Positions 16,847-35,877 of a stretch of 64,000 nt of DNA are shown one piece after another (the stretch's first letter is position 1; every line of letters starts with the position of its first letter). The DNA comes from Melioribacteraceae bacterium (GTDB lineage: Bacteria > Bacteroidota > Ignavibacteria > Ignavibacteriales > Melioribacteraceae): positions 220,684 to 284,683 of the forward strand of contig WYBN01000007.1 in assembly GCA_011525875.1 (NCBI GenBank), in the 5' to 3' direction. The notes under the pieces were generated by a model. It was not told the origin of the DNA, did no database searches, and saw nothing but the letters and a program-made list of their open reading frames with translations. The position numbers and the translations under genes are program-made.

Positions 16847-17701
16847 ATGGAAGAAGACTTTAATCTCGAAACAGCTTATAAGAACGCATTAATATTTGCG
16901 AAACAACATTACGAGAATTTTCCGGTGGTTTCCGCATTTCTTCCTAAACGGCTTCGCAGACACGTAGCGGTGATTTATCAATTTGCACGTCAAGCAGACG
17001 ATATTGCCGATGAAGGTCAATTCTCTCCGGCTGAACGGCTGGCAAAATTAAATCACTTCGAATTATTATTTAATAAAACACTTTCCCGTGAATACGAAAG
17101 CAAATTTTGGTATGCACTACACAACACAATAAAACAATTCGGGCTAAGTGAAGATAATTTCTTGAACCTTCTAAGCGCATTCAAACAGGATGTTGTTAAA
17201 AAACATTATGAAGATTTTGATGAACTGCTGGATTATTGCAGCAGATCGGCTAATCCGGTTGGAAGGCTGATATTGGAACTGAATGGGATAAAAAACGAGA
17301 CTGCGGGCACTTACTCAGATTATATATGCTCCGCTCTCCAGCTTACAAATTTTTTCCAGGATGTATCCATTGATCTTAAAAAAGACAGAATTTATATCCC
17401 CCAAGATGAAATGGAAAAATTCGGAATTTCGCGGAAACAACTTGAGTTAAAGCAAAATAATTCGGATTTTAAGGCATTATTAGAATTCCAAATTAATAGA
17501 ACACGCGGTCTTTTTCATAAAGGTCTTAATTTGCTCGAATTTCTTCCCGGACTTTTAAAGCTTCAGATAAGACTAACGGTTTTAGGCGGTTTTAGTATTC
17601 TTGATAAAATTGAAAAGTCAGGTTATGATATTTTGAAGTTACGACCTGCTTTGTCTAAAATAGATTATCTAATTTTATTTATTAAAGCGTTAAAGTTCTA
17701 A
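16847..17701 (+). CDS. hpnC: Squalene synthase HpnC (squalene/phytoene synthase family)
   Basis: SQS_PSY fold with YQFARQADDIADE and NFFQDVSIDLKKDRIYIP. It is the first of two tandem SQS_PSY paralogs followed by an amine-oxidase-type flavoprotein. Confidence 0.75.
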   Translation: MEEDFNLETAYKNALIFAKQHYENFPVVSAFLPKRLRRHVAVIYQFARQADDIADEGQFSPAERLAKLNHFELLFNKTLSREYESKFWYALHNTIKQFGLSEDNFLNLLSAFKQDVVKKHYEDFDELLDYCSRSANPVGRLILELNGIKNETAGTYSDYICSALQLTNFFQDVSIDLKKDRIYIPQDEMEKFGISRKQLELKQNNSDFKALLEFQINRTRGLFHKGLNLLEFLPGLLKLQIRLTVLGGFSILDKIEKSGYDILKLRPALSKIDYLILFIKALKF

Positions 17702-18543
17702 TGCAGGATATCGGCAAGCAAATATCGAAAAAAAGCAACAGTAGTTTTTACTATGCTTTCAGCCTGCTCCCTGATGCTAAAAGGGATGCAATGAATACAG
17801 TTTATGCTTTCTGCCGTAATACCGACGATATTGTTGACGAAGGTAATGATGAGATTACTTATAAATATGAAAAACTTCGTCACTGGAGGTTTGAACTTGA
17901 GCGAGGATTAAAAGGCAATTCTGAGCATCAGTTATTAAATAAGTTAGCAGTAATTATTCAAAAGTTTAATATCCCTCTCGAACCTTTCTTTGAACTTATT
18001 AAAGGTGTTGAGATGGATCTGGAGATAAACAGATATGACAGCTTTGAGGACCTGCTAAAATACTGCTACAGAGTTGCTTCCACTGTCGGGCTGATGTGCG
18101 TTGAAATTTTTGGATATAAAAATCCTTCCGCAAGAAATTATGCTGTTAATCTTGGTCTTGCAATGCAGTTGACAAATATACTTAGGGATGTAAAAAAAGA
18201 TGCGGCAAACGGAAGAATTTATCTGCCGCGTGAAGACTTCGTGAACTTTAACTATACTGAAAAAGAATTATTTGAAAGCAAATATAACAGCAATTTTTTT
18301 AATTTAATGAATTATCAAGCTGGAAGAGCAAACGATTTTTTTATAAAGGCTGACGACTCTTTAGATTATGACGATAAACCTTCGCTGTTTGCCGCGAGGG
18401 CAATGCAGCATATTTACTTCAAACTTCTGAAGAGATTAGAGGAAAAAAAATTTGATGTTTTTAATAATGACATCAATGTTACGAAATTTGAAAAGGTCGG
18501 AATCTCCCTCGGAGTTTGGGCTAAATACCGTCTAGTTTATTAA
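17701..18543 (+). CDS. hpnD: Presqualene diphosphate synthase HpnD (squalene/phytoene synthase family)
   Basis: FCRNTDDIVDE and NILRDVKKDAANGRIYLP Asp-rich motifs. The start overlaps the hpnC stop (TAATG). Confidence 0.75.
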   Translation: MQDIGKQISKKSNSSFYYAFSLLPDAKRDAMNTVYAFCRNTDDIVDEGNDEITYKYEKLRHWRFELERGLKGNSEHQLLNKLAVIIQKFNIPLEPFFELIKGVEMDLEINRYDSFEDLLKYCYRVASTVGLMCVEIFGYKNPSARNYAVNLGLAMQLTNILRDVKKDAANGRIYLPREDFVNFNYTEKELFESKYNSNFFNLMNYQAGRANDFFIKADDSLDYDDKPSLFAARAMQHIYFKLLKRLEEKKFDVFNNDINVTKFEKVGISLGVWAKYRLVY

Positions 18544-18596
18544 ACATCAGCCCTTGCATAAACCGGTTCTATTTTTTCTTAAAGTTAAAACTCCTA

Positions 18597-19895
18597 ATGA
18601 AAAAAGTAATTATTATTGGCGGCGGGTTTGCCGGATTAAGTACAGCTGTTTTTCTTGCCGATGCAGGTTATGATATAATTCTACTCGAAGCCTCGCCCAA
18701 GCTCGGCGGTCGTGCGTACTCATTTTACGACAAAGAGCTTTCCTGTACAATCGATAACGGTCAGCACATTATGATGGGATGTTATTCCAACACATTACAA
18801 TTCCTTGAAATAATCGGCGCCGCTGATGAATTGGAAATCCAGGAAAGATTGAATGTAGTTTTCGTGAACAGCCAAGCTCAACAGCATGAGTTGGCGCTTA
18901 AGTCAGATATTTATCCGCTTAATCTTACGAGAGCGCTGCTGAATTTCAAAGCTATCGGGATGAAAGAAAGACTAAAAATAGTTGATTTCTTTTTGGATCT
19001 TGCATTTACAGAAGATACTGATCTGGAAGACATCACCGTATTTGAATGGTTAAAAGAAAAAGGTCAATCAGACAGTTCAATAAAATCTTTCTGGGAAATA
19101 CTATCTATCGGTACGCTTAATTCCAGAATAGAAGAAGCCTCGGCTGCCACATTCAGCAGAGTATTAAAAGCTGTATTCTTACAAGGAAATGATGCCTTGA
19201 AAATTATTCTCCCTAAAAGAGGATTAAGCGAAATGTACTGCGGCTGCTCCGAAAACTTCCTAAAACAAAAAGGAGCGCAGATAAAACTTGGCGAAAAGGC
19301 AGCTTATATTGAAATTAAATATAACAGAGCAGTGAAACTAAAAACGAATAGCTCCGTCTATGAAAATTTTGATTACATTGTCTCTGCAATACCGCTTTAT
19401 TCTTTTCAAAAATTGATATTCGAGAATAGCAGCATTAAAACTCCCCGACTGGAATTGGAATATTCGCCCATTATTTCGCTGAATATTAAACTAAAACAAA
19501 ATCCGTTTGATAAAAAATTTTATGGATTAATCGACAGTTCGGCACATTGGGTGTTTAATCACGGGAATTTTGTCACAATTGTCTCAAGTGCTGCATTCGA
19601 ATTGCTAAACAAAACTAACGAAGAGATTTTTGATCAGTTTATTTTTGAACTTGAGAATTATTTCCCTGTATTTTCTCGGAATTTTGTTTTAAGTTACAAA
19701 GTGATAAAAGAAAAAAGAGCTACATTTATCCCGTTTCCAGGTTCAGAAAAAGATAGATGGAATATAGATTTTAATTGTGATAATTTGTTGTTAGCCGGCG
19801 ATTGGACTGCAACCAAACTTCCAGCTACTATCGAAGGCGCGGTTAAAAGCGGGTTTAATGCCTTTACCCGGATTACTGAAAATAATGTTCTGTAA
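18597..19895 (+). CDS. hpnE: Hydroxysqualene dehydroxylase HpnE (FAD-dependent amine-oxidase/phytoene-desaturase family)
   Basis: Rossmann N-terminus VIIIGGGFAGLSTAVFLADAGYDIILLEASPKLGGRA and C-terminal LAGDWT...PATIEGAVKSG. Confidence 0.75.
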   Translation: MKKVIIIGGGFAGLSTAVFLADAGYDIILLEASPKLGGRAYSFYDKELSCTIDNGQHIMMGCYSNTLQFLEIIGAADELEIQERLNVVFVNSQAQQHELALKSDIYPLNLTRALLNFKAIGMKERLKIVDFFLDLAFTEDTDLEDITVFEWLKEKGQSDSSIKSFWEILSIGTLNSRIEEASAATFSRVLKAVFLQGNDALKIILPKRGLSEMYCGCSENFLKQKGAQIKLGEKAAYIEIKYNRAVKLKTNSSVYENFDYIVSAIPLYSFQKLIFENSSIKTPRLELEYSPIISLNIKLKQNPFDKKFYGLIDSSAHWVFNHGNFVTIVSSAAFELLNKTNEEIFDQFIFELENYFPVFSRNFVLSYKVIKEKRATFIPFPGSEKDRWNIDFNCDNLLLAGDWTATKLPATIEGAVKSGFNAFTRITENNVL

Positions 19896-19951: not shown

Positions 19952-21259
19952 ATGTCAAATTTAAAGGAAAAACTTTACGAAAAAATTGCTGAATGGCGTC
20001 CGCGAACTACCCGTTTGCTCAAGGAACATGGTGATGTAAAAATCGGCGAAGTTACAATAGCACAGGCAATCGGAGGGGCAAGAGGAGTTAAATGCCTTGT
20101 AACTGATATCTCATATCTTGACCCGTTTGAAGGAATTCGTTTCCGTGGTTTTACCATCCCTGAGGTCTTGGAAAAACTTCCTAAAGTTCCCGGCTCGGAA
20201 ATGCCGTACGTCGAAGGATTCTTTTATTTGTTGCTTACCGGCGAAGTGCCCACTATGGAAGAGGTAAATGCAGTTGCCGAGGAATTCAACAAAAGAAAAA
20301 AAGTTCCGCAGTATGTGTTTGATATGCTGCGCGCTCTGCCAGATGACTCGCATCCAATGGCAATGATTTCGGCTGCAATCGTCGGAATGCAGAGAGAATC
20401 GGTATTTGTTCGTAAGTACAATGAAGGTATTAACAAAATGGATTATTGGGATCCGGCGTACGAAGATGCCTTAAACCTTCTCGCTAGACTTCCTGAAATC
20501 GGCGCTTTTATTTATCGGCTTAAATATAAAAACGGCGATATAATTCCACCCGATCCAAAATTAGATTTTGGCGGAAACTTTGCTCACATGATGGGTATTC
20601 CAACACCCTATGACGATGTCTCAAGATTATATTTTATTCTTCACAGCGACCACGAAAGCGGGAACGTCAGCGCTCATACCGGGCATCTGATTGCAAGTGC
20701 TTTATCGGATGTTTACTATGCAATATCGGGAATGATTAATGGATTAGCAGGCCCATTGCATGGGCTGGCAAATCAAGAAGTGCTTGCATGGATACAGCAG
20801 GTTCACGAAAAAATGGGAGGGAAAATCCCGACAGAAGAAGATATGAAAAAATTTGTTTGGGATACTCTAAATTCGGGACAGGTAATTCCAGGGTTTGGTC
20901 ATGCCGTGCTGAGAAAAACCGATCCGAGATATACCGCTCAGAGAGAATTCTGTCTGAAACATTTGCCTGATGACCCTCTCTTTAAATACGTCGATGTACT
21001 TTACAAAGTTACTCCGCCGATTTTACTGGAACAAGGTAAAGCAAAAAATCCCTGGCCAAACGTTGATGCTCAATCAGGCGTTATTCAGTGGTATTACGGC
21101 GTGAGAGAATATGATTTCTACACTGTTCTATTCGGTATTGGCAGGGCGCTTGGTGTATGTGCAAATATTATCTGGGATAGAGCGCTGGGTTATCCAATAG
21201 AAAGACCGAAATCCGTTACTACAGCTATGCTCGAGGAATCTGCCGGAATTAAAAACTAA
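19952..21259 (+). CDS. gltA: Citrate synthase (eukaryotic-like type)
   Basis: 435 aa with GPLHGLANQE, GFGHAVLRKTDPRY and NVDAQSG catalytic motifs. Confidence 0.93.
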   Translation: MSNLKEKLYEKIAEWRPRTTRLLKEHGDVKIGEVTIAQAIGGARGVKCLVTDISYLDPFEGIRFRGFTIPEVLEKLPKVPGSEMPYVEGFFYLLLTGEVPTMEEVNAVAEEFNKRKKVPQYVFDMLRALPDDSHPMAMISAAIVGMQRESVFVRKYNEGINKMDYWDPAYEDALNLLARLPEIGAFIYRLKYKNGDIIPPDPKLDFGGNFAHMMGIPTPYDDVSRLYFILHSDHESGNVSAHTGHLIASALSDVYYAISGMINGLAGPLHGLANQEVLAWIQQVHEKMGGKIPTEEDMKKFVWDTLNSGQVIPGFGHAVLRKTDPRYTAQREFCLKHLPDDPLFKYVDVLYKVTPPILLEQGKAKNPWPNVDAQSGVIQWYYGVREYDFYTVLFGIGRALGVCANIIWDRALGYPIERPKSVTTAMLEESAGIKN

Positions 21260-21350: not shown

Positions 21351-24300
21351 ATGATTGAATTGATAAATAAACTTACAACAAGGATACACGCAGGCAAAAT
21401 TTCGCTTGATCCGACAGAAATGGAAAGTACATTAAGCGATATTTTCAAGCTGATTGATCATATATGTGCCGGCAATAATTATTTTACTAACCGCGAATCG
21501 CAACTGAAAACTATCAATATTTTCGAAAACTTAACCAGAGCTGGATTGAGCGAAGCATTAATGGAAAAAGTTGATGCAGAGTTATTCTATAGATTTGGTT
21601 CGGCGCTTCTTGATGATCACGCTTCAGACGGATTTGACACTAAAATTATTTACGAATATTTGAACCTATTTCGCAGCTCGAAATTTCTTATAAGACTCAG
21701 CGAAGACATAAAATGGGAAAGACTTATTCTCGGCTTGATTAACAAGAGTGACTACACTACCCGCACTATGTTTTTTCAACGTACAAGGGATTATCCGGGC
21801 AAGACTTTATTTACAGAATTTTCCGGCGGTGAATTGATTAAACATTCATGGGAAAATGTATCTGCAAAGGTTGAAGTTTACGCAAAAGCCTTTTTATCTC
21901 TGCTGTCCCGAAACATGGATAAAGAAATCCATTGCGCATTTATTCTGGAAAATTCTTTAACTATGGCATTGCTTGACATTACATGTCTTGTAAACGGAAT
22001 TATCAATGTAATGATTCCTGCCAATTCAGTTGCAGAACATATAGAATTTATTTTGAATGAGACTAAAGCGCCTGTTGTTTTTGCCAATGACGAAAAACAG
22101 CTTGCAAAAATTAAATCTATAAAGAGCAAGCTGGCTTACTGCGAGATAGTGGTTTTGGTTAACGGTTCGAGCAGCGAGAAATGGGTGGAAAATTTTGAAA
22201 ATTTCTTAAAGTATCCGGCAGAATCCAGCAATGCGCTAACGAGCTTGCACGAAAGAAATGTGAGCGTTGATAAACTTGCAACTATTATGTACACTTCAGG
22301 CACTACTGGCGATCCCAAAGGCATAATGTTCTCGCATAGAAATATTATTTATAAAAGATTCTGCAGAGCGCTTGCCATTCCTGCTATTGGTGAGAATGAT
22401 AGATTTTTAGCCTACCTGCCGCTCTTCCATACTTTTGGAAGATACCTTGAAATGATGGGCTGTATGTTCTGGGCTGCCGAGTACATATTTATGAAGGATC
22501 CTTCTCCGCAAACGATGATCTCAAATATGCAGAGAATTAAGCCTACGGTTTTTATCAGCATACCGAAGAAATGGCTTCAGCTTTTTGAATTCATAACAGC
22601 AAAATTGAATATTGAAATCGAACCCGACGATGCGATTAGAAATATACTTGACGATACAACCGGCGGACAATTGAAATGGGGCTTGTCTGCCGCAGGCTTT
22701 TTGCCTTCTGAAGTTTTCACTTTTTTCCAGTACTACGGGATTGAACTAATGAGCGGCTTCGGAATGACAGAAGCAACGGGCGGTATTACTATGACCCCGC
22801 CCGGAAGATTCAAAGTGAATTCGCTCGGCAAAAATCTGCCAGGCATTAGTATTAAACTTGCCGCTGACGGCGAGCTTTTAATCAAAGGCGATTATGTGAT
22901 GATGGGATATTTTAACCAGGCTCCCTCCGAAGTCTTTGATGATGAAGGATGGTTTCCCACAGGGGATATTATGGTGATGGATGATGATAGCTTCATCCAA
23001 ATTATTGACAGAAAAAAAGAGATTTATAAAAATATAAAAGGCGAAACGGTTGCCCCTCAGAAAATCGAGAATCTCTTTAAGGATTTCGTAACCGTAAAGC
23101 AGGTGTTTTTAGTCGGTGATCACAGACCATTCAACACTGCATTAATTTTCCCCAACTACGAAGAAGAAAATTATATGCTCGATAAAATGAACGAAGAAGA
23201 TAAAATTAAATATTTTTCTTCAATCGTTGTTACAGTTAATAATTTTCTCGCTCCTTTCGAACGCATCGTGGATTTCAGAATAATAAGCCGTCCTTTCTCC
23301 GATGAGTTCGGAGAATTGACGACAAAAGGAACATATAAGCGGCGGGTAATTGAAAAGAATTTTGAAAATGAAATTGATTCGATGTATCAAAAGCCTCACG
23401 TCGAACTTATAGTTGACGACCTTGAGTTAAGAATTCCAAATTGGTTCTTACGTGAAAAAAGTTCGCTAAGCGGCGATATAGTTGCAATAAAAGACGGCAT
23501 AGCCATACCTAAATTGAATATTTCCCTTTGCGTGAAAACTATTGACAAAACCAGAAGACTTGTGCGTGTTGGTGATTTTATTTATAAGCTGAACAAACGG
23601 TACGTTGATTTCCAATCTGTATTTACTTCGCCGGAGGTCTGGCTCGGGAATAAAAGTCTTGTCGATTTTACCGGTGATGCCATTGTGATTTGGCAGAGAC
23701 AGTTTACAGATCGGATTGCGATAGAATACGATTCATGTATTAAAGTGGAAAACGGATTTGCCAAATGTTTTGACGAATTGGTCAAGTTTTTAAACGGAAA
23801 TGAAATCTCCACGGCAGGTCTGCACGAGGCAGCAATACTTCTTCAATCAATCAATGATGATCAAGTCGAATTAGCCGTAAAATATTTCAATATGGTTTTG
23901 ATCAAGGATGAATTCTCAGTACACTCGTTTGCTGTTGAGATATTGAAACGACCGAATTTGGTTAAATCAAAGGATGGCAGGCGTAAACTCTTTAAAATGA
24001 TTGCTAATCTATTCAGCGAACAGAATTTTCAAAATTATTTGAAGATTTATCTCTCTACCGATTATGATTTAATAAATGAAGATCTTATTAATTCGATATT
24101 AAATTCCGGAAGGAAACCCGATAAGCTTGACGCCCTTCTGAATTTAATTCAATATTATTTTAACGAGTCGGCTTATGCTGATGATTCGGTATCTCCTCTG
24201 CCGTCGCTGATAAAACTTATCGGGCTTTATGGGATACAACATCCCAGTACTTATGAGCGTGTCAGACAGGTTTTAGCGGAAATCCAGTTGAGAAGGGATA

Positions 24301-26135
24301 TAAAAAATTTTTCTGGTTATGCTGCCGAAGCAAGGGTTAAGTTGCGCGAAGGATTTAGAAACTGGATTGGTCCGAATCAAACCGTTGCCGTTGACCTCGA
24401 AACCGGCGATGAATATACCTGGGAAGATGTTATAACTTTTGAGGAGGGGATTGACGAAGAAGACCTTGCACGTATGAAGAATGCCATAATCAAACTCCCT
24501 GTAATAAGAGAAGCGGTGTTCCTTTTCTCGCGCGGCAAAATAATAACATTGAATAATCTTTTAACAGGCAGCATCTGGGTAAGCATACTTAGAAGTTATC
24601 ACAATAAAACCGTTTATAGAATCACGGTTCAGACAAGATTTCAAGGCTCCTTTGACCTTGTCTTAAATTTAAACAAGGGCAGAAAAATCGAAAATGTTAA
24701 GGATGAAATAAATCTTTTAATATTAGCCGGGTCGCGGAAATACATTCAAGAAAGAGTGGAAGACTTCGGCGGATATTGGGAAGAGTACGATTTGTGGAGC
24801 GGGAAATTCGTGCCTGGCGATCCAGTAGAAAAATTACTTCTGAAAGAATCCAGAAAAACGGATTTTGATTACGAAAGAAAATTGTATAATCTCTGGCCTT
24901 TTTTTGTTTGGAATGCCTCTGCGGCTTATTTCAACTTTTGGAGATTGACAGCTTATAAATTTATTCTGGCAGATCCGTCAACATCTAACTTTATTATACC
25001 TCCGCATGACTATCAAACAGGCACTAAGGTAATTTCTCTGTCGGAGAAAATACAATTCAAAAGCCTCATGGATATGTTTAGAAATTTTCATTCTCTTTTT
25101 ATAGAAGCCGCCGAAAATAAATATCCGTTCTTGAAAAATGAATCGGTATGGAGTTTTGTTTTTTCCGGGTTAATTAACGCCGAAGGAGAAGAGAAAGGTT
25201 TAACCATATTAAAAAACTTCAAGGAAGAGCTGATTAAAAATCCCTCGGAAGAAAAGGCCCGCTCTTTGATAAGTCAGCTTGAAGAATTTATTGAAATTGT
25301 TTCAAACGGAGATTTTATCCCCAAGCAGCTTTTCTTTTCGATCAAAAGATTTCACCGGTGGTTCGGTATAAATAAGGAAGCCGATTATACGGCACAGGCT
25401 CAGATGCTTATTGAACTGTTCGATACATACCGTTTGTTTGAACTTGAGGACGTTTATCCCGAAACACGGACATTGCTTTACCTTAAAACAGTATTCAGCG
25501 AATCTGAAGATCAGTTCAAACAAAGTCTTAAAGAAATTTTCAAGAAATATGGTTCCGGTAAAATCACAAAAGATCAGCATACAAGCTTATTAAGCAGTTT
25601 GTCGGTTTCTCTTAAATTATCGGAAAAGGAAAAGTATTTTCTCGCACGCCTTACTTATCCGCATTTAAAACCTTTAGACAGCGCAGAACTTATCGAGTTC
25701 AGCTCGGAAGGCAAAGCTACTACTAATTTAGTCGTTCACTGCGAAGATTATGACGGAGTGCCGTTCTACATCCGCAAGCCCGTATCTCCCAAGGAAATTT
25801 CCCGCCTTCATCAGCTTTTTCTTGAAGCCAATTTGCTTGTTACCTTTAAACAAGAGCATGAGTTCCTCGTAGCTATTTCCGAAAGGGGATTCATTATCGG
25901 CGGTCTTTTTTATAACCTTATAGATTCCAAAACAGCCCACATGGAAAAAATTGTTGTCGCTAATAATTTTAGGAGAAAGGGGATAAGCGATAGACTTATG
26001 AACGACTTTTTCGACCGCATGATTAGCGAAAAAATTGAAAATGTAACCACAGGTTTTTTCCGACCGGAATATTTCTACAAATTCGATTTCAAAGTTGAAA
26101 AAAAGTATGCGGGACTGGCAAAAAAACTCCGATAA
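21351..26135 (+). CDS. 1594-aa multidomain protein: N-terminal extension, AMP-forming long-chain acyl-CoA/acyl-AMP ligase (ANL), about 770 aa uncharacterised, then a C-terminal GNAT acyltransferase
   Basis: ANL motifs are YTSGTTGDPKG (nt 22290-22322), GFGMTEATGG, GWFPTGDI, DRKKEIYKNIKGETVAPQKIE and an A10-like GELTTKGTYKRR. The C-terminus has a GNAT motif A (IVVANNFRRKGISDRLM). The ORF is uninterrupted, with no internal stop. Confidence 0.85.
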   Translation: MIELINKLTTRIHAGKISLDPTEMESTLSDIFKLIDHICAGNNYFTNRESQLKTINIFENLTRAGLSEALMEKVDAELFYRFGSALLDDHASDGFDTKIIYEYLNLFRSSKFLIRLSEDIKWERLILGLINKSDYTTRTMFFQRTRDYPGKTLFTEFSGGELIKHSWENVSAKVEVYAKAFLSLLSRNMDKEIHCAFILENSLTMALLDITCLVNGIINVMIPANSVAEHIEFILNETKAPVVFANDEKQLAKIKSIKSKLAYCEIVVLVNGSSSEKWVENFENFLKYPAESSNALTSLHERNVSVDKLATIMYTSGTTGDPKGIMFSHRNIIYKRFCRALAIPAIGENDRFLAYLPLFHTFGRYLEMMGCMFWAAEYIFMKDPSPQTMISNMQRIKPTVFISIPKKWLQLFEFITAKLNIEIEPDDAIRNILDDTTGGQLKWGLSAAGFLPSEVFTFFQYYGIELMSGFGMTEATGGITMTPPGRFKVNSLGKNLPGISIKLAADGELLIKGDYVMMGYFNQAPSEVFDDEGWFPTGDIMVMDDDSFIQIIDRKKEIYKNIKGETVAPQKIENLFKDFVTVKQVFLVGDHRPFNTALIFPNYEEENYMLDKMNEEDKIKYFSSIVVTVNNFLAPFERIVDFRIISRPFSDEFGELTTKGTYKRRVIEKNFENEIDSMYQKPHVELIVDDLELRIPNWFLREKSSLSGDIVAIKDGIAIPKLNISLCVKTIDKTRRLVRVGDFIYKLNKRYVDFQSVFTSPEVWLGNKSLVDFTGDAIVIWQRQFTDRIAIEYDSCIKVENGFAKCFDELVKFLNGNEISTAGLHEAAILLQSINDDQVELAVKYFNMVLIKDEFSVHSFAVEILKRPNLVKSKDGRRKLFKMIANLFSEQNFQNYLKIYLSTDYDLINEDLINSILNSGRKPDKLDALLNLIQYYFNESAYADDSVSPLPSLIKLIGLYGIQHPSTYERVRQVLAEIQLRRDIKNFSGYAAEARVKLREGFRNWIGPNQTVAVDLETGDEYTWEDVITFEEGIDEEDLARMKNAIIKLPVIREAVFLFSRGKIITLNNLLTGSIWVSILRSYHNKTVYRITVQTRFQGSFDLVLNLNKGRKIENVKDEINLLILAGSRKYIQERVEDFGGYWEEYDLWSGKFVPGDPVEKLLLKESRKTDFDYERKLYNLWPFFVWNASAAYFNFWRLTAYKFILADPSTSNFIIPPHDYQTGTKVISLSEKIQFKSLMDMFRNFHSLFIEAAENKYPFLKNESVWSFVFSGLINAEGEEKGLTILKNFKEELIKNPSEEKARSLISQLEEFIEIVSNGDFIPKQLFFSIKRFHRWFGINKEADYTAQAQMLIELFDTYRLFELEDVYPETRTLLYLKTVFSESEDQFKQSLKEIFKKYGSGKITKDQHTSLLSSLSVSLKLSEKEKYFLARLTYPHLKPLDSAELIEFSSEGKATTNLVVHCEDYDGVPFYIRKPVSPKEISRLHQLFLEANLLVTFKQEHEFLVAISERGFIIGGLFYNLIDSKTAHMEKIVVANNFRRKGISDRLMNDFFDRMISEKIENVTTGFFRPEYFYKFDFKVEKKYAGLAKKLR

Positions 26136-26318: not shown

Positions 26319-29502
<3,184 letters not shown>

Positions 29503-31729: not shown

Positions 31730-32755
31730 ATGGGCATTCTCAACATTCTTGCAAATGATATTGCAATTGATCTTGGAACTGCAAATACACTGATTTATAT
31801 AAAAGGCAAAGGTATAGTTCTCAACGAACCCTCTATAGTTGCTTTTGATAGGAATACCAAAAAAATAATTGCACTCGGAAACAAAGCAAAAGAAATGCAG
31901 GGCAGAGAGCATAGAGAAATAAGGGTTTCACGCCCAATGCGCGACGGAGTAATTGCAGATTTTGAAATTGCCGAAGGAATGATCAGAGCATTTATCAAAA
32001 GAATTAGTTCGGGAATGCTGACAAGCAGGCGTATTATTGTAGCTATCCCGAGCGGCGTTACAGAAGTAGAAAAACGTGCTGTTCGGGATAGCGCCGAACA
32101 TGCAGGCGCAAAGGAGGTTCATTTAATTGCCGAACCTATGGCTGCTGCTATTGGTGTTGGTATTGACGTCGAAGCCCCCTACGGTAATATGATTATTGAT
32201 ATAGGCGGAGGTACAACTGAAATAGCAGTTATAGCTCTCGGAGGAATTGTAAACGAAGAATCAATAAGAATTGCCGGCGATGAAATGAATAACGCAATTA
32301 TGCAGTTCTTTAAAAAGAACTATAATTTACTGATCGGTGAAAGAACTGCTGAATCAATAAAGTGTGAAGTCGGATCAGCCATTCCTTTGAAAGAAGAAAT
32401 AACAATTCAAGTTAAAGGCAGAGACCTTGTCGGCGGTATTCCAAAAACAGCAGAAGTTAGTTCTGTCGAAATTCGAGAAGCATTAAATGAAAATATTGTT
32501 CAAATCGTTGAAGCTGTAAAACAAACGCTCGAGCGAACGCCCCCAGAGCTTTCGGCTGACATTTTAGACCGCGGAGTGATGCTTACCGGAGGCGGTGCGC
32601 TGCTGAAGGGATTGAACGAAAGAATCCGTATGGAAACTAATCTGCCCGTTCACGTGGCTGAAGACCCGCTTACAGCAGTTGTAAGAGGAGCCGGTAAATG
32701 CATCGAAAGTATCAACAAATACGCGAAGGTATTCATACGTAAAAGAACTTATTAA
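31730..32755 (+). CDS. mreB: Rod shape-determining protein MreB
   Basis: Actin-fold motifs DLGTANTLIY, DIGGGTTE and LTGGGALL. Confidence 0.96.
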   Translation: MGILNILANDIAIDLGTANTLIYIKGKGIVLNEPSIVAFDRNTKKIIALGNKAKEMQGREHREIRVSRPMRDGVIADFEIAEGMIRAFIKRISSGMLTSRRIIVAIPSGVTEVEKRAVRDSAEHAGAKEVHLIAEPMAAAIGVGIDVEAPYGNMIIDIGGGTTEIAVIALGGIVNEESIRIAGDEMNNAIMQFFKKNYNLLIGERTAESIKCEVGSAIPLKEEITIQVKGRDLVGGIPKTAEVSSVEIREALNENIVQIVEAVKQTLERTPPELSADILDRGVMLTGGGALLKGLNERIRMETNLPVHVAEDPLTAVVRGAGKCIESINKYAKVFIRKRTY

Positions 32756-33597
32756 TGAAATCTTTTTTAAGTAAATTCATTGATAGAAACAGGAATTATT
32801 TTCTGCTAATTATATTTCTTTTAATAAGTCTGTCCATACTCCCCTTAAATAATCATCCGCAAGTATCAAAAATTAAATCATACGCTTTCGGAGCATTTGC
32901 TGTTTTTACATCGGCAGTGAATTTTTTAATAAATATAGTTTCATCTGATGACGAACTCGAAAAGCAAAAGCTGCTCAATGCGGAATTGATGTTAGAAAAC
33001 AGCAGGCTGAAAAGTCTCGGGCTTGAAAATAATCAACTGAGAAAGATGCTTAGTTTGAAAGACACTTCTAACTATCCTCTAATTACTGCAAGCGTAATTT
33101 CCAAAATTGTTGATAATATCCACGGCAATATGATAATTAACATCGGCGCGGATAATAATATCACGGCAGGCATGCCTGTAATAAACGAACGCGGATTACT
33201 CGGTGTCATTTCTGACGTAAGCAGAAATTTCTCCGTCGTTAGAACTTTATTTAATGCAAACTTTAAAATAGCCGTTATGGATCAACGAAGCGGAATCGAA
33301 GGAATATTAGGGTGGAACGGTTCTAATCTTGTTATATCCAATATTGCGGTTACCGAAGATATTAAAATAGGGGACAAAATTATCACCTCAGATTTCAGCA
33401 CTCTTGTTCCTCCTGCTATCCCGGTTGGTGTCGTCATATCTAAACGAGCATCGTATTCGGGACTTCTTAACGATATAATCGTTGAGCCTTTTGTAGATTT
33501 TGGAATTTCCCGTAAAGTTTTTGTAATGAGTATTGTAACCGATGACGAGATAATTGCGTTAAGGAAGAAGATTGAGCGGGGGAAAAATGACCAATAA
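32755..33597 (+). CDS. mreC: Rod shape-determining protein MreC
   Basis: N-terminal TM segment, coiled coil (ENSRLKSL..ENNQLRKML), then beta-barrel domains. Positioned between mreB and mreD. Confidence 0.88.
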   Translation: MKSFLSKFIDRNRNYFLLIIFLLISLSILPLNNHPQVSKIKSYAFGAFAVFTSAVNFLINIVSSDDELEKQKLLNAELMLENSRLKSLGLENNQLRKMLSLKDTSNYPLITASVISKIVDNIHGNMIINIGADNNITAGMPVINERGLLGVISDVSRNFSVVRTLFNANFKIAVMDQRSGIEGILGWNGSNLVISNIAVTEDIKIGDKIITSDFSTLVPPAIPVGVVISKRASYSGLLNDIIVEPFVDFGISRKVFVMSIVTDDEIIALRKKIERGKNDQ

Positions 33598-34069
33598 AAT
33601 TCTTCTGCCCGCCGGATTATTTTTAGTCGCTGCATTTTTGCAGCTTACAATTGCACCGCTCTTAACTCTTAATTCGATCGGTCCCGATTTTATTTTAATA
33701 CTTGTTGCATACTATGGAATGAAATTCGGTCAAAGATTCGGTATGATTTATGGATTTTCGGCAGGATTATTTTTTGATATTGTGAGCGGAGGTATGATAG
33801 GAAGCTCAATGTTTTCAAAAACAACCGCAGGCTTTACCGCAGGATTTTTTTATGTTGAACCGGGAAGCGAACTCCGCATTGACTCGTTAAGATTCTTAAC
33901 GGTTGTATTCTTTTGTGCATTACTTGATTCTTTTTTTTACAGTATATTTAGCACGGTTGAAATTATATTCAACTTTTATCAGTTAGTTTTTATAAGGAGT
34001 ATTTTGCCTTCGGTTTACACGACGATCTTGAGTTTGCCGGTAATATTTTTAAGAAATAGAGGCGCGTAA
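33587..34069 (+). CDS. mreD: Rod shape-determining protein MreD
   Basis: Small polytopic membrane protein directly after mreC. ATG 33587 is preferred over TTG 33572. Confidence 0.8.
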   Translation: MTNKILLPAGLFLVAAFLQLTIAPLLTLNSIGPDFILILVAYYGMKFGQRFGMIYGFSAGLFFDIVSGGMIGSSMFSKTTAGFTAGFFYVEPGSELRIDSLRFLTVVFFCALLDSFFYSIFSTVEIIFNFYQLVFIRSILPSVYTTILSLPVIFLRNRGA

Positions 34070-34071
34070 GA

Positions 34072-35877
34072 ATGGATGATAATACCTTCGCTTCGCCTTA
34101 CAGAAGAAGACTGCTTTTTTATGCGGTCATTTTACTTTTCCTCTTTTTAATTATGCAATTGTTCCGGCTTCAAATCGTTACAAATAAATTCTATAGCGAC
34201 AAATCAAATGAAAACAGTATCAAAGCCGAAGTCCTTTCTCCGCCGCGCGGGATATTTTATGACAGGAATATGCACATACTAGTCGGCAATAAACCGGCTT
34301 ATACGCTCGAAATAACCCCGGCTTATTTTGATTCAAGCCTCGCACCCCTTGTTGAAAAGGCGATAGGTGAAAACGAAGGTTATATTAGTTCCGTTTTAGA
34401 CCGCACAAAAAAAATTCCAAGCTTTTTACCAAGAAAAATAAAAAGAGATATAAATTTCAAAGCTCTTGCACTGTTAGAAGAAAATCATGAGCATTTTGAT
34501 GGGACAAAATATGTGATAGAACTGAAACGGGATTATTCATTCGGAATCAACGGCGCACATCTTTTCGGATACACAAAAGAAATTGATCCGGAACTGCTTA
34601 GAGAAAGGAAGGATCAATATCAAATCGGCGACTATATTGGGTACGGCGGCATAGAAAAAAATTACGAATATTTAGTTAAAGGAACTAAAGGCTATTTATA
34701 TTATCTTGTTGATTCGAGGCAGCGAATAATATCGAGATATGAAAACGGCAAAAAAGACATTCAACCCGATCGAGGATATGATTTAGTGCTTACGATCGAC
34801 AAAAGTGTTCAGAAGGTTGCCGAGCTTGCATTCGAAGGAAAGAAAGGAGCTTTAGTGGCAATCGAACCTTTAACGGGGGAGATATTGGCGCTGGTGAGTG
34901 CACCTGCATTTGATCTGCAGGAATTTGCAACGACAACTTCTTCTGAGTTTCTTAACAGTCTTAATTCAAATGTTGATAAACCGATGTTCAATCGTGCTAC
35001 TATGTCGCGTAATCCCCCCGGGTCGACATTCAAAATGCTTCTCGCAATCACAGCGCTCGAAGAAGGAATAATTACTACAAAATATACCGTAACATGCGGC
35101 GGTTCTTTTCAATTCGGCAATCGACCTTTTAAGTGTACACATGTTCATGGTTCGGTTAATGTAACAAGAGCCATCGAAAAATCGTGTAACGTATTTTTTT
35201 ATAACCTAATGCTGAAAGTCGGATTGGATAAATGGTCTGAGTACGGAAGCAGATTCGGATTCGGCGAAAAAACTGGAATAGATATCAGTGAAGAGTCAAA
35301 CGGAATAATGCCGAGCCGGAATTACTTTGACCGGGTCTACGGCAAAGGTAAATGGACAGACGGATATTTGATAAGTCTGGCAATCGGGCAGGGGGAGGTT
35401 GTTACTACTCCGGTTCAACTTGCACAATATGCAGCTCTCTTAGCTAACGAAGGGAAAACAAAAATCCCGCATGTTTTAAAAGGTTACATTGATAACCAAA
35501 ACAACTCATTCGTACCTATTGAATTCGGAGATTTTACTGTTGATATCAGTAAGGAAACATTTAACATTATCAGAGAAGGAATGAGGCTCGTAGTTGAGGG
35601 AGAGGGAACTGCAGCGCACATTCGTCAAAAAAAATTTGATATTGCCGGCAAAACGGGAACGGCTCAAAACCCTCATGGCGAAAATCATGCTTTGTTTATC
35701 GGCTTTGCACCGTTTAATAATCCACAGATTGCTGTTGCCGTGATAGTTGAAAACGCAGGATACGGAAGTACGCATGCCGCGCCGATTGCCCGGGATGTTA
35801 TGAAAGAATATTTGAAAAACATAACGACAAATAAAAGCGAGCTTATTGCAAAGAATGCCGGAGGCATAATAAATTGA
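34072..35877 (+). CDS. mrdA: Penicillin-binding protein 2 (elongasome transpeptidase)
   Basis: N-terminal TM segment, PBP dimerisation domain, and GSTFK (SxxK), SCN and KTGTAQ motifs. Confidence 0.94.
   Translation: MDDNTFASPYRRRLLFYAVILLFLFLIMQLFRLQIVTNKFYSDKSNENSIKAEVLSPPRGIFYDRNMHILVGNKPAYTLEITPAYFDSSLAPLVEKAIGENEGYISSVLDRTKKIPSFLPRKIKRDINFKALALLEENHEHFDGTKYVIELKRDYSFGINGAHLFGYTKEIDPELLRERKDQYQIGDYIGYGGIEKNYEYLVKGTKGYLYYLVDSRQRIISRYENGKKDIQPDRGYDLVLTIDKSVQKVAELAFEGKKGALVAIEPLTGEILALVSAPAFDLQEFATTTSSEFLNSLNSNVDKPMFNRATMSRNPPGSTFKMLLAITALEEGIITTKYTVTCGGSFQFGNRPFKCTHVHGSVNVTRAIEKSCNVFFYNLMLKVGLDKWSEYGSRFGFGEKTGIDISEESNGIMPSRNYFDRVYGKGKWTDGYLISLAIGQGEVVTTPVQLAQYAALLANEGKTKIPHVLKGYIDNQNNSFVPIEFGDFTVDISKETFNIIREGMRLVVEGEGTAAHIRQKKFDIAGKTGTAQNPHGENHALFIGFAPFNNPQIAVAVIVENAGYGSTHAAPIARDVMKEYLKNITTNKSELIAKNAGGIIN

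What the first reader, a model, noticed from the sequence alone, without database searches (positions are those of the whole stretch)
21351..26135. Giant 1594-aa fusion of an AMP-forming acyl ligase and a C-terminal GNAT, joined by about 770 uncharacterised residues
One uninterrupted ORF carries four parts. (i) An N-terminal extension of about 135 aa. (ii) A complete ANL/FAA1-type adenylating domain (YTSGTTGDPKG, GFGMTEATGG, GWFPTGDI, DRKKEIYK..GETVAPQKIE, A10-like TTKGTYKRR). (iii) Roughly residues 690-1440, where I recognise no motif. (iv) A C-terminal GNAT fold with motif A RRKGISDRLM. Stand-alone FadD/FAA1 enzymes are about 550-650 aa, and the paralog at 45064-46773 in this window is the ordinary 569-aa form. 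Covalent coupling of acyl activation to an N-acyltransferase suggests either a one-polypeptide N-acylation machine (N-acyl amino acid/lipid or protein acylation) or a self-regulating enzyme. In the second case the GNAT would modify the ANL A10 lysine, by analogy with Pat/Acs regulation. I cannot assign it to a described system from sequence alone. It is the strongest candidate for novelty in the window.
Basis: partly seen in the sequence, partly recalled or inferred. Interest (0 to 1): 0.7.

Follow-up and report, generated by a model that had tools for sequence, protein, structure and literature searches.

The report
Giant acyl-ligase, pseudokinase-like, acetyltransferase fusion
This is a real, widely conserved but unstudied 184-kDa bacterial protein that joins a fatty-acid-activating enzyme to a histone-acetyltransferase-like domain through a previously unrecognised kinase-like module, and its gene repeatedly sits beside citric-acid-cycle genes.

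Summary
ORF 21351-26135 (+) is uninterrupted and encodes 1594 aa: an N-terminal extension, a complete FAA1/FadD-type adenylating (ANL) domain, about 760 residues with no family match, and a C-terminal GNAT. It is not a chimera. The identical protein occurs on 18 contigs from separate runs, and the same layout occurs in 192 GTDB species.

The family covers Ignavibacteria, Candidatus Marinimicrobia and other FCB-group lineages. Domain lengths stay constant down to 25% identity.

The "motif-free" middle is not featureless. AlphaFold models (pLDDT 87-89) and Foldseek show a small beta domain, a helical domain and a divergent protein-kinase-like (PKL) domain. Helical plus PKL resembles VPS34/PI3K in layout. 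The canonical kinase catalytic residues are not conserved.

ANL and GNAT catalytic motifs are conserved, but the canonical A10 lysine column holds Thr/Ser, with an invariant Lys two residues upstream. The GNAT is closest to GCN5/PCAF lysine acetyltransferases.

The gene lies next to citrate synthase, aconitase, isocitrate dehydrogenase or fumarase in all three clades, in different arrangements.

Best reading (about 0.35): a PatZ-like metabolic acyltransferase whose regulatory region is an active acyl-CoA synthetase plus a pseudokinase scaffold. No published characterisation was found. It is a new variant of known kinds.

The parts
21351..26135 (+). Whole gene: 1594-aa, 184-kDa soluble protein, pI 5.9, no transmembrane segment
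   Evidence: The start is supported by 100% coverage of homologs.
21351..21773 (+). N-terminal extension, residues 1-141. Fold not determined.
   Evidence: No Pfam, NCBIfam or PDB match. Its length varies by clade: about 145 aa in the close clade and about 94 aa in the far clade. Only L104 and W122 are conserved family-wide.
21774..22913 (+). ANL large (N-terminal) domain, residues 142-521, carrying motifs A3 (313-324) and A5 (469-478)
   Evidence: PF00501, E 1e-55. The motifs are invariant in all three clades.
22947..23393 (+). ANL hinge and C-terminal subdomain. It holds the fatty-acyl-CoA-synthetase signature GWFPTGDI...IIDRKKEIYK (533-560) and the A10-like loop ELTTKGTYKRR (655-665).
   Evidence: PF23562 at 562-681 and conservation data. 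The canonical A10 Lys column is T661, as shown by alignment to the paralog and to carboxylic acid reductases. K659 is invariant.
23406..23750 (+). Small beta-rich domain, residues 686-800, starting with the invariant motif IPNWFLREK (695-703)
   Evidence: AlphaFold model, pLDDT about 90. Conservation. The fold was not identified.
23751..24371 (+). All-helical domain, residues 801-1007; the least conserved part
   Evidence: Model. It aligns together with the next domain to the VPS34 helical + kinase region. Identity per domain.
24372..25676 (+). Divergent protein-kinase-like (PKL) domain, residues 1008-1442. It includes the acidic motif AVDLETGDEYTWEDV (1013-1027), R1090, the loop LADPSTSNFII (1206-1216) and HDYQTG (1219-1224, with D1220 conserved in 173 of 183 family members).
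   Evidence: Domain-only model: pLDDT 89.2, pTM 0.83. Foldseek gives 233 PDB hits at E<=1e-3, and all 50 listed have protein-kinase-like folds. Conservation. No sequence-family match.
25677..26132 (+). GCN5-like GNAT domain, residues 1443-1594. Features: beta4 acid E1532 and motif A RRKGIS (1541-1546).
   Evidence: Pfam. The family profile matches Tetrahymena GCN5 at E 1e-7 and PCAF/KAT2B at about 4e-3. Foldseek matches. Conservation.
19952..21259 (+). Citrate synthase gene 91 nt upstream, a recurrent neighbour of the family
   Evidence: Pfam. Synteny counts.

Best explanation
This is a cytoplasmic three-module enzyme that ties carboxylic (probably fatty) acid activation to lysine acylation at the entry to the TCA cycle. 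It works on the same logic as the large bacterial protein acetyltransferases (PatZ/Pat).

Shown:
- An ANL domain of the long-chain acyl-CoA synthetase type with intact adenylation and thioesterification motifs.
- A GCN5-like GNAT with intact acyl-CoA-binding motif A and a conserved beta4 acid.
- Between them, a beta + helical + protein-kinase-like module whose canonical kinase catalytic residues are not conserved.
- A recurrent gene-neighbourhood link to citrate synthase, aconitase, isocitrate dehydrogenase and fumarase.

Inferred:
- The ANL converts a free acid plus ATP plus CoA into an acyl-CoA.
- The GNAT uses acetyl- or acyl-CoA to modify protein lysines. The most likely targets are the lysines of its own ANL A10 loop (K659/K663), giving built-in Pat/AcuA-type feedback, and/or the TCA enzymes encoded next door.
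- The helical + pseudokinase module is a scaffold and a sensor of a nucleotide or other anionic ligand. It sets GNAT activity, as the acyl-CoA-synthetase-like regulatory domain does in PatZ.
For: - The architecture is conserved, with constant domain lengths, in 183 full-length members down to 25% identity. It is present in 192 GTDB species.
- ANL motifs A3, A5, A7 and A8 are essentially invariant in all clades, and the position equivalent to the acetate-gating Trp of acetyl-CoA synthetase is Gly471 (the Trp-gate rule is my own knowledge).
- The GNAT profile matches GCN5 at E 1e-7 and PCAF at about 4e-3, above all other solved GNATs. Motif A and E/D1532 are conserved in all clades.
- ANL and GNAT are the two most conserved parts: 61% and 64% median identity in the close clade, against 30-49% for the middle domains.
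- The middle region is PKL-like by fold. The HRD-like Asp is D/N/E or lost, there is no beta3 Lys, and only R1090, N1213, D1220, R1333 and R1373 persist.
- TCA neighbourhood: citrate synthase lies within the flank in 49 of 75 close-clade loci. It is convergent in 2 of 2 Marinimicrobia loci, which also have glutamate dehydrogenase upstream. In the far clade it is divergent or convergent, or the gene is flanked by aconitase, citrate synthase and isocitrate dehydrogenase, or by fumarase; 10 of 35 far-clade loci have a TCA gene.
[quoted passage not shown] AcuA and AcsA form a stable complex (abstract of PMC11255334, seen). The PatZ regulatory domain, about 80% of that protein, derives from an acyl-CoA synthetase, binds acetyl-CoA and ATP, and is needed for activity (PMC12184503).
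Against: - No biochemical data exist for any member.
- The canonical A10 lysine column is Thr/Ser, and the Pat-type motif (Pro, four residues, Gly-Lys; from my own knowledge) is absent.
- GNATs known to acetylate ANL enzymes (Pat, AcuA, MtPat) did not appear among PDB matches at E<=1.
- A long-chain-type ANL and a GCN5-like GNAT, which usually prefers short acyl groups, do not obviously share an acyl-CoA.
- The mapping of kinase motifs rests on secondary-structure order only, because model coordinates and residue-level superpositions were not available.
- Foldseek TM-scores to kinases are modest: 0.26-0.33 of the query, with the best target-normalised value 0.60 for Bud32.
- The TCA linkage is absent from about 70% of far-clade loci, and inside Ignavibacteria it may partly reflect inherited gene order.
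- A fused 1:1 cis-regulator is unusual.
Confidence: 0.35

Rival explanations
1. One-polypeptide N-acylation machine for a small molecule or lipid. The ANL makes a fatty acyl-CoA or acyl-AMP and the GNAT transfers that acyl group to an amine acceptor, giving an N-acyl amino acid or aminolipid. The middle module binds the acceptor or membrane lipid.
For: - Both catalytic ends are intact, and the ANL product class is the GNAT substrate class.
- The ANL is of the long-chain type, with the fatty-acyl-CoA-synthetase signature and best NCBIfam hits to FadD11 and long-chain ligases.
- The helical + kinase-like layout resembles the lipid kinase VPS34.
- Precedents from my own knowledge: Aas (ANL + acyltransferase), and FadD33/MbtK (ANL plus a GNAT lysine N-acyltransferase) in mycobactin synthesis.
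Against: - There is no carrier (PP-binding) domain.
- The GNAT is specifically GCN5/PCAF-like, not like known long-chain N-acyltransferases.
- The protein is soluble, with no membrane segment.
- The neighbours are TCA enzymes, not lipid or amino-acid-lipid genes.
- The gene is not in a biosynthetic cluster.
Confidence: 0.2
2. Tri-catalytic regulator. The PKL domain is an active, atypical kinase or ATPase that phosphorylates TCA enzymes, playing an AceK-like role, or drives a conformational cycle as Bud32 does. GNAT acylation is a second output.
For: - The PKL fold is confidently predicted.
- N1213 and D1220 sit where the Mg-binding Asn and the DFG Asp are expected and are conserved. The loop DPSTSNFII resembles the Bud32/RIO catalytic loop DLTTSN (motif from my own knowledge).
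- Bud32 gives the best TM-score, 0.60.
- Isocitrate dehydrogenase and citrate synthase are neighbours. AceK has the same order of a helical regulatory domain followed by a PKL domain (my own knowledge).
Against: - The catalytic Asp column is D/N/E in the close clade and lost in the far clade.
- There is no beta3 Lys, and the alphaC Glu becomes Thr in the far clade.
- No kinase family HMM matches.
- hhalign against PKA and against E. coli AceK gives probability below 1%.
Confidence: 0.12
3. The ANL activates a TCA-related or short acid (acetate, citrate or another di- or tricarboxylate) rather than a fatty acid. It works metabolically with the adjacent citrate-synthase-family enzyme, for example in acetyl-CoA supply or a citryl-CoA route. 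The GNAT acts as an acetyl-CoA sensor.
For: There is a persistent link to citrate synthase in three orientations across phyla. Citryl-CoA lyases are citrate-synthase homologs (my own knowledge).
Against: - The ANL carries the long-chain fatty-acyl-CoA-synthetase signature and has Gly at the acetate-gate position.
- The best family matches are fatty-acid ligases.
- The neighbouring citrate synthase is an ordinary, highly conserved housekeeping type, 74-86% identical across Ignavibacteria.
Confidence: 0.08
4. Artefact: an assembly chimera or a read-through of separate ligase and GNAT genes.
For: None, apart from one locus where the gene is split into pieces of 469, 186 and 923 aa.
Against: - The identical ORF occurs on 18 contigs from independent runs.
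- The layout is contiguous in 80 of 80 genome loci and in 183 full-length proteins from several phyla.
- The split case is a frameshifted long-read assembly whose pieces sum to the full length.
Confidence: 0.01

Closest known systems
Type I bacterial protein acetyltransferases (PatZ/YfiQ/Pat)
   Same: A large multidomain protein with a C-terminal GNAT making up 10-20% of the chain. The rest derives from an acyl-CoA-synthetase-type enzyme plus an ATP-binding fold. Pat-type enzymes have a role in carbon and energy metabolism, and their best-known targets are ANL enzymes (PMC12184503, PMC4053389).
   Different: The Pat regulatory domain is homologous to an NDP-forming (ADP-forming) acetyl-CoA synthetase. 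Here it is an AMP-forming ANL with all core motifs intact, plus a helical/PKL module. No CoA_binding_2, Succ_CoA_lig or ATP-grasp domains are present. The GNAT is nearer to GCN5 than to any solved bacterial GNAT. None of the five described GNAT types has this regulatory region.
FAA1/FadD11/FadD15-type long-chain fatty-acid--CoA ligases (COG1022; ANL superfamily)
   Same: AMP-binding plus AMP-binding_C_3 domains, motifs A3, A5, A7 and A8, and the fatty-acyl-CoA-synthetase signature.
   Different: About 140 extra N-terminal and about 910 extra C-terminal residues. Scores are far below every NCBIfam cutoff (FadD11: 205 bits against 950). The canonical A10 lysine column is Thr/Ser, with invariant K659 two residues upstream.
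GCN5/PCAF histone (lysine) acetyltransferases
   Same: The best sequence and fold match of the GNAT domain: 20-21% identity, TM 0.60-0.61 normalised to the target. Motifs A and B align.
   Different: This is a bacterial protein with no bromodomain or partner subunits. The GCN5 catalytic Glu aligns with H1530, which is not conserved; the conserved acid E/D1532 lies two residues further along the same strand.
VPS34/class III PI3K (helical + kinase domains) and minimal atypical kinases (Bud32/RIO)
   Same: The order of a helical domain followed by a bilobal kinase-like domain; Foldseek top hits at E 2e-5 with 600-660 aligned columns for VPS34. The Bud32 core superposes best (TM 0.60). The catalytic-loop-like DPSTSN resembles Bud32's DLTTSN (the Bud32 motif is from my own knowledge).
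   Different: No sequence similarity. The DRH and DFG motifs are absent, and the catalytic Asp and the ATP-binding Lys are not conserved. Overall TM-scores are low (0.2-0.3). There are about 200 extra helical residues in the C-lobe.
AcuA-AcsA complex, and Aas (acyl-ACP synthetase / 2-acyl-GPE acyltransferase)
   Same: These are precedents for a physical 1:1 pairing of a GNAT with an ANL (AcuA-AcsA, abstract seen) and for fusion of an ANL to an acyltransferase (Aas, which matched the ANL part only).
   Different: AcuA is a separate small GNAT acting on a Gly-Lys A10 lysine. Aas uses a PlsC-type acyltransferase and an acyl carrier protein. Neither contains a kinase-like module.

Membership tests
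ANL superfamily, FAA1/FadD-type acyl-CoA synthetase | AMP-binding large domain plus C-terminal subdomain | tested here: met
   PF00501 (189 bits) and PF23562 (56 bits), both above their cutoffs.
ANL superfamily, FAA1/FadD-type acyl-CoA synthetase | Core motifs A3 (T/S-S-G-T-T-G-x-P-K-G), A5 (G-x-T-E), A7 (T-G-D) and A8 (D-R-x-K) | tested here: met
   Essentially invariant in 183 members of all three clades.
ANL superfamily, FAA1/FadD-type acyl-CoA synthetase | Catalytic A10 lysine at the canonical position | tested here: inconclusive
   The column that aligns to the A10 Lys of the window's paralog and of two carboxylic acid reductases holds T661, which is T/S in all clades. K659 is invariant and K663 is variable.
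ANL superfamily, FAA1/FadD-type acyl-CoA synthetase | Orthology to a named ligase (NCBIfam cutoff) | tested here: not met
   Best hits are FadD11 at 205 bits against a cutoff of 950, and PRK06187 at 187 bits against 476.
GNAT superfamily (GCN5-like) | GNAT fold with motif A Q/R-x-x-G-x-G/A | tested here: met
   Pfam Acetyltransf_1 scores 26.7 bits against a cutoff of 20.7. Fold matches appear. R1541-x-x-G1544-x-(S/G/A)1546 is conserved.
GNAT superfamily (GCN5-like) | General-base acid on strand beta4 | tested here: inconclusive
   The GCN5 Glu aligns with H1530, which is variable. E/D1532, two residues on, is conserved in all clades.
Type I/II bacterial protein acetyltransferase (Pat/PatZ) | Regulatory domain homologous to an NDP-forming acyl-CoA synthetase | tested here: not met
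   No such Pfam or NCBIfam domains anywhere in the protein. Fold hits for the middle region are kinases.
Type I/II bacterial protein acetyltransferase (Pat/PatZ) | Acetylates the active-site lysine of ANL enzymes | not testable with these tools
   Needs an in vitro acetylation assay or mass spectrometry.
Protein-kinase-like superfamily | Bilobal kinase fold | tested here: met
   233 PDB hits at E<=1e-3; all 50 listed are protein kinases or kinase-fold small-molecule phosphotransferases, each at probability 1.00. TM-scores are modest, best 0.60 to Bud32.
Protein-kinase-like superfamily | Catalytic set: beta3 Lys, alphaC Glu, catalytic-loop Asp and Asn, DFG Asp | tested here: not met
   There is no beta3 Lys. 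E1119 becomes Thr in the far clade. D1208 is D/N/E or lost. Only N1213 and D1220 persist. The mapping is by secondary-structure order, not by superposition.
Protein-kinase-like superfamily | Match to any kinase sequence family | tested here: not met
   Pfam on 12 members at E<=10 gave none. NCBIfam gave none. hhalign against PKA gave probability 0.2%.
AceK (isocitrate dehydrogenase kinase/phosphatase) | Sequence homology to AceK | tested here: not met
   hhalign of the family's helical+PKL profile against E. coli AceK gave probability 0.3-0.4%.
Anti-phage defence systems | Match to a PADLOC model | tested here: not met
   No hit for the whole protein or for the middle region.

The most novel reading that the evidence does not exclude
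A sixth, undescribed type of bacterial multidomain GNAT acyltransferase. An enzymatically active long-chain acyl-CoA synthetase and a PI3K-like helical/pseudokinase module together form the sensing and regulatory region. The protein gates carbon entry into the TCA cycle by acylating citrate synthase, aconitase or isocitrate dehydrogenase, or its own ligase domain. It does this across FCB-group bacteria, including the abundant marine Marinimicrobia (SAR406).
Probability: 0.3. Interest if true: 0.75.

Novelty: new variant of a known kind. Interest (0 to 1): 0.62.

Why it matters
If the reading is right, these bacteria hard-wire fatty-acid activation, an ATP-binding-fold sensor and lysine acylation into one polypeptide placed beside the first enzymes of the TCA cycle. 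That would be a compact solution to the acetyl-CoA/CoA homeostasis problem, which other bacteria solve with separate Pat/AcuA, sirtuin and AceK proteins.

It would add a new regulatory-domain type to the current five-type scheme of bacterial GNAT acetyltransferases. It would also define a 760-residue module, including a very divergent kinase-like fold, that no sequence library recognises.

The family is a near-universal marker of Ignavibacteria and is present in Marinimicrobia, which are abundant in the ocean. A function would therefore annotate a large, currently uninformative gene in many environmental genomes. Cultured hosts (Melioribacter roseus, Ignavibacterium album) make it experimentally reachable.

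Tried and rejected
- **Assembly chimera or split genes.** Rejected. The only "short" forms are contig-edge fragments or a frameshifted long-read copy.
- **Middle region as a Pat-like NDP-forming acyl-CoA-synthetase domain.** This was my first idea. It is rejected because no such domains are found and the fold is kinase-like.
- **Sequence-level identification of the middle region.** Pfam on 12 members, NCBIfam, PADLOC and a PDB profile search all gave nothing.
- **Other architectures sharing the middle module.** An exhaustive HMMER search of 1.84 billion representatives gave only 407 hits. The 150 listed are proteins of the full architecture's length or shorter fragments; the remaining 257 were not visible.
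- **Homology of the PKL domain to PKA or AceK by hhalign.** No support.
- **Operon signals around the gene.** The promoter and terminator scan was no better than shuffled sequence.
- **CTP synthase as a functional partner.** It is adjacent in only 23 of 70 close-clade loci and absent elsewhere, so I treat it as lineage synteny.
- **Expression evidence from Melioribacter roseus proteomics.** The gene between citrate synthase and CTP synthase, MROS_2825, is named 'Lytic transglycosylase catalytic' and was seen with single peptides. A related MAG has a separate 312-aa SLT gene at that spot. The ortholog's tag could not be settled.
- **First metagenome scan with a six-sequence far-clade alignment.** It failed for lack of conserved stretches. 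A two-sequence alignment worked.
- **Inter-domain geometry.** Whether K659 docks into the GNAT could not be examined, because the tools return no coordinates or PAE and the full protein exceeds the 1200-residue limit.
Full report
**1. The observation**

The ORF at 21351-26135 on the + strand is uninterrupted and encodes 1594 residues.

Pfam places AMP-binding at residues 142-521 (E 1e-55), AMP-binding_C_3 at 562-681 (E 7e-15) and a GNAT (Acetyltransf_1) at 1498-1564, above its gathering score. Nothing matches residues 1-141 or about 686-1475. NCBIfam matches only the ligase part, all far below family cutoffs; the best is FadD11 at 205 bits against 950.

The second ligase in the window, at 45064-46773, is a normal 569-aa ANL and is only 23% identical to the fused one. 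The protein is predicted to be soluble, at 184 kDa with no transmembrane segment. The gene has the same GC content as the window, 38.2%.

**2. It is a real, conserved gene**

The identical protein is encoded on 18 independently assembled contigs from several sequencing runs. A search of 5.8 billion proteins returned more than 120 homologs of 1587-1622 aa at 48-57% identity, nearly all covering 96-100% of the query. Their only names are 'GNAT family N-acetyltransferase', 'AMP-binding protein', 'long-subunit acyl-CoA synthetase/GNAT' or 'FadD15'.

A scan of one genome per GTDB species found 192 species encoding it. The 80 best loci are almost all Ignavibacteria (Melioribacteraceae and Ignavibacteriaceae, including MAGs labelled Melioribacter roseus and Ignavibacterium sp.). 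A few are labelled Calditrichota. All 80 have the ligase, middle and GNAT parts contiguous.

I then ran an exhaustive HMMER search of 1.84 billion representative proteins with a profile of the middle region only. It found just 407 proteins. The full-length ones among the 150 listed are 1426-1710 aa, with the middle region in the same relative place.

Apparent short forms are contig-edge fragments. One is a long-read assembly in which the gene is broken into pieces of 469, 186 and 923 aa.

More divergent members (30-40% and about 25% identity) come from Candidatus Marinimicrobia, 'FCB group bacterium', Candidatus Eisenbacteria and MAGs labelled Bacteroidota or Ignavibacteriaceae. Across 183 full-length members the domain lengths are nearly constant: beta about 115, helical about 206, kinase-like about 430 and GNAT 152 residues. 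This holds even where identity in the middle falls to 15-25%.

**3. What the 'motif-free' middle is**

An AlphaFold2 model of residues 686-1594, built on a 98-sequence alignment, is confident (mean pLDDT 87.1, pTM 0.73). It contains, in order:
- a small beta-rich domain (686-about 800);
- an all-helical domain (about 801-1007);
- a bilobal alpha/beta domain (about 1008-1442);
- a compact GNAT (1443-1594).

Foldseek against the PDB puts human and yeast VPS34/PIK3C3 (helical + kinase domains) on top, at E 2e-5 to 7e-4 with 600-710 aligned columns. Bud32, Eph, JAK, CDC7 and BRAF kinases follow, then small-molecule kinases (corramycin phosphotransferase, PsiK). The C-terminus matches NatD, GCN5, Ard1 and other GNATs.

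A second model of residues 1008-1442 alone (pLDDT 89.2, pTM 0.83) gives 233 PDB hits at E<=1e-3. All 50 listed hits have protein-kinase-like folds. The best superposition is Bud32, with TM 0.60 of the target over 225 columns.

TM-scores normalised to the query are only 0.26-0.33. The domain is therefore a very divergent member of the fold, with about 200 extra helical residues. VPS34 is not among the top hits of the domain-only search. Its rank for the larger model therefore comes from the helical domain and the kinase-like domain matching together, meaning the layout is PI3K-like.

No sequence method sees any of this. Pfam on 12 members at E<=10, NCBIfam, PADLOC and a PDB profile search all gave nothing, as did hhalign against PKA and E. 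coli AceK.

**4. Are the catalytic sites intact?**

*ANL.* Motifs A3, A5, A7 and A8 are essentially invariant in all three clades. The hinge region carries the fatty-acyl-CoA-synthetase signature (GWFPTGDI...IIDRKKEIYK). The position equivalent to the acetate-gating Trp of acetyl-CoA synthetase is Gly471, which points to a medium- or long-chain or bulky acid. That rule is established knowledge of the family, not something tested here.

There is one deviation. In alignments to the window's own paralog and to two carboxylic acid reductases, the canonical A10 lysine column falls on T661, which is Thr/Ser in every clade. K659, two residues upstream, is invariant. K663 is Lys in the close clade only. 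K659 probably takes over the A10 role, but this needs testing.

*GNAT.* Motif A (R1541-x-x-G1544-x-S/G/A1546) and an acid on strand beta4 (E/D1532) are conserved in all clades. A profile of the domain matches Tetrahymena GCN5 at E 1e-7 and PCAF/KAT2B at about 4e-3 to 5e-3. The only other match below 1e-3 is an uncharacterised S. aureus GNAT (3d8p, E 6e-5). Pat, AcuA and MtPat do not appear at E<=1.

*Kinase-like domain.* I mapped motifs by the order of secondary-structure elements; this is inference, because no coordinates were available. On that mapping:
- The loop LADPSTSNFII (1206-1216) follows the long helix where the catalytic loop is expected, and HDYQTG (1219-1224) sits where DFG is expected.
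- N1213 is largely conserved, and D1220 is conserved in 173 of 183 family members.
- The Asp in the HRD position (D1208) is D/N/E in the close clade and lost in the far clade.
- There is no conserved lysine on the strand before the C-helix.
- The C-helix Glu (E1119) becomes Thr in the far clade.
- The conserved polar residues are mainly arginines: R1090, R1333 and R1373.

This is the pattern of a pseudokinase or ligand-binding domain, or of a very atypical enzyme, not of a canonical kinase.

ANL and GNAT are the most conserved parts (61% and 64% median identity in the close clade). The kinase-like domain is at 49%, the beta domain at 41%, the helical domain at 30% and the N-terminal extension at 28%.

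**5. Genomic context**

In the window the gene follows citrate synthase by 91 nt. CTP synthase, a TPR protein, purN, purH and the mre/rod genes come after it. A class A penicillin-binding protein, an alkaline phosphatase and a squalene-synthesis trio (hpnCDE-like) lie upstream.

*Close clade (Ignavibacteria).* Among 68 loci with enough flank, citrate synthase is directly adjacent upstream on the same strand in 40. It is within 5 kb in another 10. CTP synthase is adjacent in only 23 of 70.

*Middle clade (Marinimicrobia).* In both loci examined, citrate synthase is downstream and convergent, and glutamate dehydrogenase is upstream and divergent.

*Far clade.* I examined 59 metagenome loci plus 5 others. 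Four arrangements occur:
- One group has citrate synthase directly upstream and divergent, and some loci have a class I fumarase downstream.
- One locus has citrate synthase downstream and convergent.
- A third group of eight loci has aconitase directly upstream; citrate synthase lies beyond it and isocitrate dehydrogenase downstream where the flanks reach.
- The remaining loci have no TCA gene in the flank.

These neighbours were confirmed by Pfam.

Counting loci of at least 9 kb, a TCA-enzyme gene lies in the flank in 49 of 75 close, 2 of 2 middle and 10 of 35 far loci. My rough expectation by chance is a few percent; this estimate was not computed.

The partners are the same pathway in three orientations across phylum-level distances. 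I therefore read this as a functional association with acetyl-CoA entry into the oxidative TCA branch. It is not universal, and inside Ignavibacteria it may partly be inherited gene order.

**6. Most likely mechanism**

The nearest working analogy is the large bacterial protein acetyltransferases. In E. coli PatZ, about 80% of the protein is a regulatory domain derived from an NDP-forming acetyl-CoA synthetase. That domain binds acetyl-CoA and ATP and is required for GNAT activity. The current five-type scheme of bacterial GNATs lists only that domain and cAMP-, ACT- or NADP-binding regulatory domains (PMC12184503).

[quoted passage not shown] AcuA forms a stable complex with its ligase target (abstract of PMC11255334).

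Here a GCN5-like GNAT is covalently joined to an AMP-forming ligase and an ATP-binding fold, and the gene sits beside TCA genes. I therefore favour, at about 0.35, a metabolic lysine acyltransferase with two features:
- Its regulatory region is an active acyl-CoA synthetase plus a pseudokinase scaffold or sensor.
- Its targets are its own ligase loop (K659/K663) and/or the neighbouring TCA enzymes.

The architecture, motif conservation, fold and synteny are shown. Every catalytic step and every target is inferred.

The rivals are:
- a small-molecule or lipid N-acylation machine (0.2);
- an active atypical kinase with an AceK-like role (0.12);
- a ligase for acetate, citrate or a related acid working with citrate synthase (0.08);
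- an artefact (0.01).

The remainder is 'something else'.

**7. Membership and novelty**

The protein is a member of the ANL and GNAT superfamilies by their defining features. The A10 position and the exact general base remain open.

It is not a member of several families I considered:
- It is not a Pat/PatZ-type enzyme, because the regulatory domain is different.
- It is not an ortholog of any named FadD.
- It belongs to no kinase sequence family.
- It is not detectably related to AceK.
- It is not a known defence protein.

Five full-text literature searches found no description of this domain order. It is best called a new variant of known kinds: known folds in an undescribed, ancient and widely distributed architecture that includes a 760-residue module invisible to sequence libraries.

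**8. Limits**

- No coordinates, PAE or residue-level structural alignments were available.
- The whole chain exceeds the structure-prediction limit, so inter-domain contacts could not be examined. This includes whether the A10 loop can reach the GNAT site.
- The folds of the N-terminal extension and the beta domain remain unidentified.
- Only the best 150 of the 407 middle-region hits were visible.
- Organism labels are those of the deposited MAGs.
- The expression evidence from Melioribacter roseus proteomics could not be tied to the ortholog.

Noticed in passing
window 16847-19895: Two squalene/phytoene-synthase-family genes plus a flavin amine-oxidase gene (hpnC/hpnD/hpnE-like squalene route) lie just upstream of citrate synthase. 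This trio is syntenic with the giant gene in 33-36 of 80 Ignavibacteria loci.
   Followed up: partly
window 23313-23345 (residues 655-665): The ligase's A10 loop reads ELTTKGTYKRR. The column that holds the catalytic lysine in the paralog and in carboxylic acid reductases is Thr661 (Thr/Ser family-wide). An invariant Lys lies two residues upstream.
   Followed up: yes
window 31730-37103: A cell-shape cluster follows purH. By synteny with locus L004 it reads mreB, mreC, mreD, PBP2 and rodA; Pfam confirmed rodA. It is ordinary housekeeping context.
   Followed up: partly
L006 6005-10772: In one long-read MAG the family gene is split into three ORFs of 469, 186 and 923 aa. This is most likely frameshift errors or a pseudogene. 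It explains the apparent 'ligase-less' 923-aa form in the protein databases.
   Followed up: yes
L040 4002-4940 (about nine other close-clade loci show a comparable gap): L040 carries a 312-aa SLT lytic transglycosylase gene between citrate synthase and the giant gene. In the Melioribacter roseus annotation the gene at this position (MROS_2825) carries that name, so published proteomics could not be assigned to the ortholog.
   Followed up: partly
L071 and L072: Two separate contigs of the same MAG (MFD02979.bin.1.207) each carry a full copy of the family gene. This is either a true duplication or a mixed bin.
   Followed up: no
L091 1-341: A far-clade genome also encodes, about 7.7 kb upstream, an 819-aa AMP-binding + PP-binding + PlsC-acyltransferase protein (Aas-like). 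This shows that the classical ligase-acyltransferase fusion coexists with this family.
   Followed up: no
L123 10068-12146 and up to 12 other far-clade loci: A sensor histidine kinase lies near the gene; in L123 it has ferredoxin and Fe-hydrogenase-like sensory domains. The cluster was defined by BLAST single linkage and may be heterogeneous.
   Followed up: partly
window 26343-28013 and 27961-29502: The mechanical ORFs for CTP synthase (TTG start, 556 aa) and the following TPR protein overlap by about 50 nt. Gene calls on identical contigs give 545 aa for CTP synthase, so the listed start is probably too early.
   Followed up: no
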